From: an uncultured archaeon
GTDB lineage: Archaea > Asgardarchaeota > Lokiarchaeia > Sigyniarchaeales > SOKP01
Assembly: GCA_964525635.1 (NCBI GenBank)
Contig: CAZGJX010000056.1
Coordinates: forward strand, 1-26,109
Length of the DNA stretch: 26,109 bases
Direction of reading: 5' to 3'
Positions 19,376-20,290 of the stretch are shown here, in pieces. Made by a program: the position numbers and the translations under genes. Position 1 is the first letter of the stretch; the number at the start of each line of letters is the position of its first letter. The notes under the pieces are model-generated. The model worked only from the letters and a program-made list of their open reading frames with translations. It did no database searches and had not been told where the DNA came from.

Positions 19376-19790
19376 TTAAGATTTTTAATTTTTCTTAGAA
19401 ATTAAAAACCAAATAGTTCAATTTGGAGAAAAAAAGAAAGAAAAAAGATTAATAAAAGAAAGAAAGTAATAAAAAAGGAGAATGGATGAGAAACCGAATA
19501 TTAGACAGGATCGGGGGATTTAAATCTTCTTTCTTTTTTAATTTTTGATCTTATATCTTTTATTTATATTTAAATAAAAAATCAACTATTCAAAACAAAA
19601 GATTATCAAAATATATTATTAAAAAAAAATTATCATGATTTCTCAAGAAAATATTTCTTTTTACTCTTAAAGCAGATTAAAACTACTTAACTTTTTTCCA
19701 TGATCCATTTATATATCACCAATAAAATCTCTTTATTAAGAATAATAAAATAAAAGTCTTTTAAAAAAAATATAAATTTGGAGATAAAAC

Positions 19791-19913
19791 ATGAGAAAGA
19801 AAGAAAATTTAATAATTAATAGAGACCAATGGGAAAAGTTAAGAGATTATAAATTAAATTCTATTAAGAAAAGATTTTTAGAAATGCGTGAAATACAGCA
19901 ATATGGTTATTAG
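19791..19913 (+). CDS. 40-aa microprotein A, MRKKENLIINRDQWEKLRDYKLNSIKKRFLEMREIQQYGY
   Basis: Manual translation. GGAGA SD at 19780-19784. 18/40 ungapped identities with the paralogue at 20168. Confidence 0.85.
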   Translation: MRKKENLIINRDQWEKLRDYKLNSIKKRFLEMREIQQYGY

Positions 19914-20167
19914 ATCTTTATACCTTCGCTTTTTAATTTATTGTTAGAATTGATTGAATGCTTAATATTATCTGTATATTTAAATTTATGTTTTATCTGA
20001 TATTTTCCCGCTTTTTCTAATATATATTGAGTAGATTTACTTATCCATTCTATTTATTATAATTATGTTTTTACTCAAAAATTGGACTCTAATAATCATA
20101 AATATAAATTTATATTTTATTTTATTAAGAAAATATTTTAATTATAACTTATGGTTTAGTATAGAAA

Positions 20168-20290
20168 ATGAAAAAAAATAATAAATTAATGATAAGCAGA
20201 GAAAATTGGGAACTTCTAATAGAATATAAAAAAACTTCCTTCAAAAAGAGATATTCAGAATTATTAGAATTTGAACACATAGGGTATTAA
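20168..20290 (+). CDS. 40-aa microprotein B, MKKNNKLMISRENWELLIEYKKTSFKKRYSELLEFEHIGY
   Basis: Manual translation. Same length as microprotein A and colinear with it, with synonymous changes at conserved codons. Confidence 0.85.
   Translation: MKKNNKLMISRENWELLIEYKKTSFKKRYSELLEFEHIGY

What the first reader, a model, noticed from the sequence alone, without database searches (positions are those of the whole stretch)
19780..20290. Two paralogous unannotated 40-aa peptides ending in Gly-Tyr
Seen: MRKKENLIINRDQWEKLRDYKLNSIKKRFLEMREIQQYGY and MKKNNKLMISRENWELLIEYKKTSFKKRYSELLEFEHIGY have identical length and 18/40 ungapped identities (L-x-I-x-R-x-x-W-E-x-L-x-x-Y-K-x-x-S-x-K-K-R-x-x-E-x-x-E-x4-G-Y). 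Conserved residues often use different codons (K3, I9, L17, S24, K26, K27, G39, and the stop), which indicates protein-level selection. Both fall below the ORF-track cutoff. Each has an E-x-x-x-Y near the C-terminus (EIQQY, EHIGY), though not in register.
Basis: seen in the sequence. Interest (0 to 1): 0.8.

Follow-up and report, generated by a model that had tools for sequence, protein, structure and literature searches.

The report
Lokiarchaeial small-protein paralogs beside rSAM gene
The two 40-residue genes are real, selected members of a small two-helix protein family found only in one group of Asgard (Lokiarchaeia-type) archaea, and they are probably not the substrates of the neighbouring peptide-modifying radical SAM enzyme, whose conserved partner is a different, cysteine-rich peptide.

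Summary
Both ORFs (19791-19913 and 20168-20290, + strand) encode 40 aa with 18/40 ungapped identities. That never occurred in 200,000 shuffles. Third codon positions are saturated and dN/dS is about 0.2.

They belong to a family of 73 database clusters (90% identity), or 56 at 50% identity. All are 30-85 aa "hypothetical proteins" from Asgard MAGs, with no Pfam, NCBIfam or PDB relative. The AF2 model is an extended N-terminus followed by two helices.

The family occurs in 16 of 37 genomes of the window's taxonomic family. Its neighbours differ between genera and its C-terminal tails vary. The Gly-Tyr end and the E-x-x-x-Y motif are not family features.

Only in the window's genus does a copy sit directly upstream of the RRE-radical SAM/SPASM gene. 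Orthologues of that enzyme in six other genera lack the 40-aa gene. They always keep an 81-aa partner and usually a peptide with CKCGGGC repeats, which the window also has at 16741-16860.

- **Best reading (0.55):** free-standing small binding proteins.
- **Not excluded (about 0.2):** the rSAM-linked subclade, whose short tails end in Gly/Ser-(Val)-Tyr/Cys, has been co-opted as a second substrate.

The scan had already noted this cluster and the Cys-rich peptide on this same window.

The parts
19791..19913 (+). pepA: 40-aa member of the small-protein family. It is a divergent extra copy, closest to the dispersed copy G000:C64:14994-15113.
   Evidence: ORF. HMM match E 4e-24. pS is 0.32 to the C64 copy against 0.67 to pepB, and dN/dS is 0.34-0.79. 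A GGAG lies at 19780-19783, 7 nt before the ATG. It lacks the conserved upstream motif.
20168..20290 (+). pepB: 40-aa member of the family and orthologue of the rSAM-linked copy in sister species.
   Evidence: ORF. It forms a clade with the G001, G002, G003 and P0018 copies (UFboot 99, SH-aLRT 79). dN/dS to those orthologues is 0.12-0.30. The AF2 model has coil 1-10, helix 11-22 and helix 25-38, with pLDDT 83.
20077..20089 (+). Conserved promoter-proximal DNA motif (AAAAATTGGWCY type), 86 nt before the pepB start.
   Evidence: A TTGG[A/T/G]C core lies 58-87 nt before the ATG in 17 of the 20 family members compared, drawn from at least 8 genera. This is the only exact match in the window.
20424..21698 (+). 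Context: RRE-radical SAM-SPASM enzyme, 133 nt downstream of pepB.
   Evidence: Pfam Radical_SAM E 8e-26. SPASM TIGR04085 scores 40 bits against a cutoff of 27. The model of the N-terminal 105 aa best matches RRE domains: TbiB1, TruD, CteB, PqqD.
21743..21988 (+). Context: 81-aa three-Cys protein, the invariant partner of the rSAM gene.
   Evidence: tblastn finds it immediately downstream of the rSAM match in all 20 related genomes that have one (21 fetched loci, since the G012 gene gave two), at 61-79% identity within the family and 31-37% in the four genomes of other families.
16741..16860 (+). Context: 39-aa peptide with three CKCGGGC repeats, the likely cognate substrate of the rSAM enzyme.
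   Evidence: Three exact pattern matches against 0 expected. It lies within 1.5 kb upstream of the rSAM gene in 7 related genomes. It occurs in 13 of the 17 rSAM-bearing genomes of the family and in 0 of 40 genomes without an rSAM match.
22086..24737 (+). Context: 579-aa alpha/beta hydrolase (S9-like) and DUF1848 protein. They follow the rSAM-81aa pair only in this genus.
   Evidence: Pfam. Syntenic in G001, G002 and contig L068. In other orthologous loci an MBL-rhodanese gene takes their place.

Best explanation
pepA and pepB are two of three copies in this genome of a lineage-restricted family of small basic proteins. Members are about 40-55 aa, with an extended N-terminus and two helices. 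The conserved pattern is h-x-h-x-R-x-x-W-E ... K-K-R-Y-x-E-L. I read them as free-standing folded proteins that act by binding a partner through the conserved Arg/Trp/Lys-Arg-Tyr face. The partner is most likely a nucleic acid or another protein. pepB, like most members, is preceded by the family's conserved upstream DNA motif, which suggests a promoter of its own; pepA is not. Their position upstream of the radical SAM/SPASM gene is a gene-order feature of this genus, not a substrate relationship. That enzyme's conserved companions are the 81-aa protein and the CKCGGGC-repeat peptide. Shown here: coding status, selection, family membership, distribution, lack of a conserved neighbour, and lack of co-occurrence with the enzyme. 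Inferred: the two-helix fold (a model only) and binding as the mode of action. The partner is unknown.
For: 1. Real genes under selection. Identity is 18/40, with 0 of 200,000 shuffles reaching that. dN/dS is 0.02-0.30 among pepB-clade orthologues; G001 against G003 shows 6 synonymous and 1 nonsynonymous change in 37 codons.
2. Family size. There are 73 clusters at 90% identity, all from Asgard MAGs and named only 'hypothetical protein'. An exhaustive HMM search gives 56 representatives of 30-79 aa with no fusions.
3. Distribution in family f1. The 40-aa family is in 16 of 37 genomes and the rSAM orthologue in 17 of 37. Both occur in 10, the family alone in 6, the rSAM alone in 7. Genera g2, g11 and g13 have the family without the enzyme. 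Genera g4, g5 and g10 have the enzyme without the family.
4. No neighbour is conserved across genera. Other contexts are LeuA-like, FrhB-like, aminotransferase, and a 324-aa protein near an actin gene.
5. rSAM orthologues at 64-68% identity sit behind an MFS gene with no 40-aa gene.
6. The family's most conserved part stays conserved in genomes that lack the enzyme, so an RRE cannot explain its conservation.
7. The AF2 model is confident for such a short chain: pLDDT 83, two helices.
8. A conserved upstream DNA motif is shared by family members in all contexts, including pepB.
Against: In every genome of the window's genus, and on one metagenomic contig, a copy lies directly upstream of the RRE-rSAM/SPASM gene on the same strand, with gaps of 128-219 nt. 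In G003 a contig break interrupts the pair, but the two contig ends are compatible with adjacency. In G001 and G002 the copy lies between the Cys-rich peptide and the enzyme. This adjacency survived a roughly 2.9-kb insertion in the window. The rSAM-linked clade is also the only one whose tail is cut to about 5 residues and ends in Gly/Ser-(Val)-Tyr/Cys, residues typical of radical cross-linking chemistry. No binding partner or fold relative was found, so 'binding protein' is an inference from composition and conservation.
Confidence: 0.55

Rival explanations
1. In this genus, the rSAM-linked subclade of the family (pepB and its orthologues, and perhaps pepA) has been co-opted as a second precursor type for the RRE-radical SAM/SPASM enzyme. 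The conserved N-terminal strand and helices would serve as the leader. The C-terminal Gly/Ser-(Val)-Tyr/Cys would be modified. The adjacent S9-like hydrolase might release the product.
For: The arrangement is invariant, same-strand and immediately upstream in G000 (two copies), G001, G002 and contig L068, and is compatible with the contig ends in G003. The enzyme has a genuine RRE-like N-terminal domain and a SPASM domain. Tails are short, evolve faster than the body and end only in Tyr or Cys in all 6 sequences. G001 and G003 differ at 1 of 38 body residues but at 2 of 3 tail residues. The dispersed copy on C64 has lost the Gly-Tyr. The hydrolase and DUF1848 genes are likewise specific to this genus.
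Against: The family and the enzyme do not co-occur across genera, and the 'leader' is equally conserved where no such enzyme exists. The enzyme's conserved peptide partner is the CKCGGGC peptide: 13 of 17 rSAM-bearing family genomes against 0 of 40 genomes without an rSAM match. All linked copies form one clade, so the adjacency and the short tail may reflect a single event. Tyr and Cys codons differ by one transition, and a thioether-forming enzyme could not use the Tyr-ending, Cys-free peptides in the same way. pepB carries the family-wide promoter motif, not a cluster-specific one.
Confidence: 0.22
2. The 40-aa proteins are cluster-associated accessory factors in this genus. They could be a small DNA-binding regulator (ribbon-helix-helix-like strand-helix-helix) of the rSAM operon, or a chaperone or decoy that engages the RRE without being modified.
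For: The predicted order, an extended strand followed by two helices in about 40 aa, with a basic net charge and conserved Arg/Lys/Tyr/Trp, fits small nucleic-acid binders. The position directly upstream of the operon is conserved in the genus. In the archaeal Crp system, a second leader-bearing protein, CrpB, was discussed as a possible chaperone (PMC13692751).
Against: There is no sequence or fold match to RHH or HTH families beyond generic two-helix hits. In other genera the family lies far from the enzyme. The conserved upstream motif is not the protein's own operator: it is equally enriched in five genomes that lack the family.
Confidence: 0.13
3. The ORFs are not translated. The conservation would reflect a non-coding element or chance ORFs in AT-rich DNA.
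For: No direct expression data exist. The genome is about 25% G+C. No terminator-like sites were found.
Against: Third-position saturation together with conserved amino acids, dN/dS well below 1, conserved length and stop position, 70+ homologous ORFs in many genomes, and no Rfam match in 16000-21000.
Confidence: 0.02

Closest known systems
CrpA/CrpB-CrpC system of Methanococcus voltae (RRE-radical SAM/SPASM enzyme installing thioethers on Cys-repeat substrates; PMC13692751)
   Same: It is an archaeal RRE + rSAM + SPASM enzyme encoded next to a substrate that has a short N-terminal leader and repeated Cys motifs, together with a second small leader-bearing protein of unclear role. In the window this matches the CKCGGGC peptide, the enzyme and the extra small genes.
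   Different: The 40-aa proteins share no leader with the Cys-rich peptide and have no Cys repeats. The window's enzyme is not a TIGR04463 member: its SPASM part scores 17 bits against a cutoff of 525. The substrates here are about 40 aa, not proteins of 100 aa or more.
Mycofactocin precursor MftA (C-terminal Gly-Val-Tyr modified by rSAM/SPASM MftC with RRE protein MftB)
   Same: It is a short peptide encoded just upstream of an rSAM/SPASM enzyme, with a C-terminal Gly-(Val)-Tyr. One orthologue (G001) ends exactly G-V-Y.
   Different: There is no match to the mycofactocin precursor model. The enzyme scores 17 bits against a cutoff of 265 for MftC. Three of the six linked peptides end in Cys, not Tyr. 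There are no mftD, mftE or mftF genes. The peptide family exists without the enzyme in other genera.
PqqA (Glu-x-x-x-Tyr cross-linked by PqqE with PqqD)
   Same: It is a small peptide next to an RRE-dependent rSAM/SPASM enzyme, and both window copies contain an E-x-x-x-Y.
   Different: The motif is out of register between the two copies and absent from the orthologues. There are no pqqB or pqqC genes.
Ribbon-helix-helix small DNA-binding proteins (CopG/Arc type, about 45 aa)
   Same: Similar size, an N-terminal alternating hydrophobic/polar strand followed by two helices, and a basic character. The comparison of pattern is from my own knowledge of the fold.
   Different: No profile or structural match was obtained. 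Dimer formation was not tested.

Membership tests
RiPP precursor of an RRE-radical SAM/SPASM maturase | Encoded next to the maturase on the same strand | tested here: met
   pepB lies 133 nt upstream of the enzyme. The same arrangement holds in G001, G002 and contig L068. It holds only in this genus.
RiPP precursor of an RRE-radical SAM/SPASM maturase | Peptide family and maturase family co-occur and co-localise across genomes | tested here: not met
   In family f1, 10 genomes have both, 6 the peptide only and 7 the enzyme only. In six genomes with both, the two genes lie on different contigs. Orthologous enzymes at 64-68% identity have no such gene upstream.
RiPP precursor of an RRE-radical SAM/SPASM maturase | Conserved leader plus variable core that carries modifiable residues | tested here: inconclusive
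   The body is conserved and the tail variable. Tails of the linked clade end in Tyr or Cys. The same pattern fits a folded protein with a free tail.
RiPP precursor of an RRE-radical SAM/SPASM maturase | Leader bound by the RRE and core chemically modified | not testable with these tools
   This needs binding assays and mass spectrometry.
PqqA | Conserved Glu-x-x-x-Tyr and pqqBCDE neighbours | tested here: not met
   The motif is absent from G001, G002, G003 and P0018. No pqq genes are present.
Mycofactocin precursor MftA | C-terminal Gly-Val-Tyr, an MftC equivalog and mftB-F genes | tested here: not met
   Only 1 of 6 linked peptides ends G-V-Y. TIGR03962 scores 17 bits against a cutoff of 265. 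No other mft genes are present.
Ribbon-helix-helix DNA-binding proteins | Strand-helix-helix fold that dimerises, with a profile match to RHH families | tested here: inconclusive
   The model shows coil-helix-helix. No RHH family or chain appears among the Pfam, PDB-sequence or fold matches. The dimer was not tested.
Villin headpiece (PF02209) | Match to the VHP profile above its threshold | tested here: not met
   Only 3 of 66 members match, with a best E of 0.0063. Neither window copy matches.

The most novel reading that the evidence does not exclude
A folded small-protein family has been recruited in one Lokiarchaeial genus as a second, non-Cys-repeat substrate of an RRE-radical SAM/SPASM enzyme. 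The modification would fall on a C-terminal Gly-Tyr or Gly-Cys, in a mycofactocin-like position, and the product would be released by the genus-specific S9-like hydrolase. That would be an Asgard RiPP or redox-cofactor pathway caught in the act of acquiring a new precursor.
Probability: 0.2. Interest if true: 0.75.

Novelty: new variant of a known kind. Interest (0 to 1): 0.38.

Why it matters
The work turns two unexplained short ORFs into a defined Asgard-restricted small-protein family, with a conserved motif, a predicted fold and a conserved upstream DNA element. No curated family library searched here (Pfam, NCBIfam) holds it. It also corrects the gene model of a candidate Asgard RiPP cluster. 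The enzyme's evolutionarily stable partners are an 81-aa three-Cys protein and a CKCGGGC-repeat peptide, so experiments should start with those. If the minority reading is right, the locus would show how a RiPP maturase acquires a new substrate from an unrelated folded protein.

Tried and rejected
- **Complex prediction.** Complex prediction of the full rSAM enzyme with pepB, both as alignments, gave no verdict: score 0.01 against a mark of 0.32, and the controls were not run. It counts neither for nor against binding.
- **Fold searches of the pepB model.** Foldseek against PDB gave no match. VIA-align wide gave only generic two-helix hits with Z of 3.3 or less. The Atlas search by shape gave generic HTH segments. 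The Atlas search by features scored 0.88 or less.
- **Profile searches.** The profile against PDB sequences gave one chance hit at E 0.8. Pfam and NCBIfam gave nothing for either window copy.
- **Villin headpiece.** Three of 66 family members gave weak hits, and the main clade lies about 1.5 kb from an actin gene. I rejected this as membership and kept it only as a lead.
- **Upstream motif as the protein's own operator.** Rejected. The 11-mer is enriched over its reversed control to the same degree in five genomes without the family (22-44 sites against 6-15) and five genomes with it (26-55 against 8-14).
- **Synteny of the C64 copy with genus g2 loci.** Suggested by similar gene sizes, then rejected by BLAST.
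- **Non-coding or regulatory RNA.** There is no Rfam match in 16000-21000 at E up to 1, and no terminator-like sites.
- **Literature.** Searches found no paper on this family or on Asgard rSAM RiPPs of this type.

Full report
**Observation**

The window is about 25% G+C. pepA (19791-19913) and pepB (20168-20290) are both 40-codon ORFs on the + strand.
- Nucleotide identity by codon position is 29, 30 and 18 of 40.
- Seven conserved residues use different codons.
- None of 200,000 shuffles reached 18 identities (maximum 15).
- The next-best pair among the window's 31 comparable short ORFs has 12 identities.
- dN/dS for the pair is 0.23.

**A family, not a pair**

An HMM of the two found a third 40-aa copy in the same genome, at G000:C64:14994-15113. 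It ends in A-N rather than G-Y and lies between OsmC-like and ZIP-transporter genes.

A three-sequence profile then matched 16 of 37 genomes of the window's taxonomic family. It matched none of 24 genomes from other families of the same order and class.

A 17-sequence profile recovered 73 clusters from 5.8 billion proteins. All are 30-85 aa, and all are named "hypothetical protein" from Asgard MAGs when named at all. An exhaustive HMM search of 1.84 billion representatives gave 56 hits of 30-79 aa and no fusion to larger proteins.

Conservation:
- Trp14 is invariant.
- Arg11, Glu15, Lys27, Arg28, Tyr29 and Glu31 are at least 90% conserved.
- Everything after about residue 35 varies in length and sequence.

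No Pfam, NCBIfam or PDB-sequence relative exists. AlphaFold2 with 66 sequences gives coil 1-10, helix 11-22 and helix 25-38 at pLDDT 83. Fold searches return only generic two-helix matches.

**The neighbourhood**

Downstream of pepB lie four genes:
- A 424-aa enzyme with Radical_SAM and SPASM domains. The modelled fold of its N-terminal 105 residues is best matched by RiPP recognition elements: TbiB1, TruD/LynD, CteB, lasso B1, PqqD.
- An 81-aa three-Cys protein.
- A 579-aa alpha/beta hydrolase.
- A DUF1848 protein.

**Comparative test of the precursor idea**

*Within the genus.* In G001 and G002, one family member sits 194-219 nt upstream of the orthologous enzyme (68-69% identity), followed by the same three genes. 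A metagenomic contig shows the same arrangement for a copy ending G-C. In G003 the two genes lie at facing contig ends.

*Outside the genus.* The link disappears.
- Enzyme orthologues at 53-65% identity occur in genera g3, g4, g5, g6, g9 and g10. None has a family member upstream.
- Three further database orthologues at 64-68% identity sit behind an MFS gene and are followed by an MBL-rhodanese gene.
- Family members in other genera lie next to LeuA-like, FrhB-like and aminotransferase genes, or downstream of an uncharacterised 324-aa gene near an actin gene. No neighbour is shared between genera.
- Phyletic counts in the family are 10 genomes with both, 6 with the peptide only, 7 with the enzyme only and 14 with neither.

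*What travels with the enzyme.* The 81-aa gene is present in all 20 related genomes that have the enzyme and is better conserved than the enzyme itself. A 28-45-aa peptide with a short basic leader and CKCGGGC-type repeats also travels with it.
- It lies within 1.5 kb upstream in seven related genomes.
- It occurs in 13 of the 17 enzyme-bearing genomes of the family and in none of the 40 genomes without an enzyme match.
- It usually lies on the same contig as the enzyme.

The window has this peptide at 16741-16860. About 2.9 kb that is absent from G001 and G002 separates it from pepA. In G001 and G002 the order is Cys-peptide, 40-aa gene, enzyme.

The closest described analogue is the archaeal CrpA/CrpC system, in which an RRE-rSAM/SPASM enzyme installs thioethers on a Cys-repeat substrate (PMC13692751).

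**Relationship of the two copies**

In a maximum-likelihood tree, pepB groups with the other rSAM-linked copies (UFboot 99, SH-aLRT 79). pepA is a long branch near the C64 copy.

Synonymous divergence agrees. pS is 0.32 for pepA against C64 and 0.67 for pepA against pepB. pepA also shows relaxed constraint, with dN/dS of 0.34-0.79. pepA and C64 share the TAG stop and a 24/25-nt identical stretch.

So pepB is the ancestral linked gene, and pepA and C64 are lineage-specific extra copies.

**Tails**

The six linked sequences end G-Y, G-Y, G-V-Y, S-V-C, G-C and G-C. The DNA alignment shows point changes and one 3-nt indel. G001 and G003 differ at 1 of 38 body residues but at 2 of 3 tail residues.

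Restriction to Tyr or Cys is notable, and both residues suit radical chemistry. However, the two codons differ by one transition, all six sequences form one clade, and the E-x-x-x-Y is not conserved. I treat this as the main evidence keeping the precursor reading alive at about 0.2.

**Upstream motif**

Seventeen of the 20 family members compared, drawn from at least eight genera, carry a TTGG[A/T/G]C core 58-87 nt before the ATG. In most, including pepB at 20077-20089, it extends to the fuller form AAAAATTGGWCY. pepA does not carry it.

In the window's genome the 11-mer occurs 35 times against 19 expected from composition. About 19 of these are in intergenic DNA 48-145 nt upstream of ORFs, usually followed some 20 nt later by a TATA-like TTWATAT.

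It is enriched 2-6 fold over its reversed control in ten related genomes, whether or not they encode the family. It is therefore a shared promoter or operator element, not the protein's own operator. It suggests that pepB has its own promoter.

**Verdict**

- The best-supported reading (0.55) is a free-standing two-helix binding protein whose adjacency to the rSAM gene is a genus-level gene-order feature.
- A co-opted-precursor role for the linked subclade (0.22) and a cluster-accessory role (0.13) remain open.
- The complex prediction gave no verdict and is not used as evidence.

Noticed in passing
window 16741-16860 (+): A 39-aa peptide with a short basic leader and three CKCGGGC repeats. 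Its presence tracks the rSAM/81-aa pair: 13 of the 17 enzyme-bearing genomes of the family have it, none of 40 genomes without an enzyme match do, and it is mostly on the same contig as the enzyme. It is the most likely cognate substrate. This exact sequence is not in the public protein collection.
   Followed up: partly
window 21743-21988 (+): An 81-aa three-Cys protein lies immediately downstream of the rSAM gene in all 20 related genomes that have the enzyme, including genomes of other families at 31-37% identity. Within the family it is better conserved (61-79%) than the enzyme (53-69%). It may be an obligate partner or a protein substrate.
   Followed up: partly
window 20077-20089 (+); G000 genome-wide: A DNA motif AAAAATTGGWCY, usually followed about 20 nt later by a TATA-like box, marks roughly 19 intergenic sites upstream of ORFs whose N-terminal sequences look like FtsX-type permeases, paralogous membrane proteins, a PadR-type regulator, flavodoxin-like and MazG-like proteins, and small proteins (read by eye, not searched). 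It is enriched 2-6 fold over a reversed control in 10 related genomes. It looks like an unassigned regulon or promoter element.
   Followed up: partly
window ~16900-19700: About 2.9 kb that is absent from the syntenic loci of G001 and G002. It carries a 229-aa protein whose ends look hydrophobic (read by eye; no family match) and a 161-aa SRPBCC/polyketide-cyclase-like protein. It separates the Cys-rich peptide gene from the rest of the cluster.
   Followed up: partly
window 25376-25807 (+): A 143-aa ORF matches only the C-terminal part of the TnpB/Cas12f profiles (E 8e-19 to Cas12f2, positions 305-436 of 524). It is a fragment or truncated RNA-guided nuclease gene.
   Followed up: no
L069:1320-4150, L072:1239-4138: In the largest clade of the family, the small gene follows a conserved 324-aa protein of no Pfam family and lies about 1.5 kb from a divergently oriented actin-family gene. 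Three family members give weak Villin-headpiece hits (best E 0.006). This is a weak lead only. The 324-aa gene has an orthologue in G000 (C8:43489-44454) with no small gene beside it.
   Followed up: partly
L031:8312-9700, L033:1548-2927, L034:2985-4358: In genus g2 the small gene is followed on the same strand, after 139-156 nt, by a conserved 457-462-aa protein with no Pfam match.
   Followed up: no
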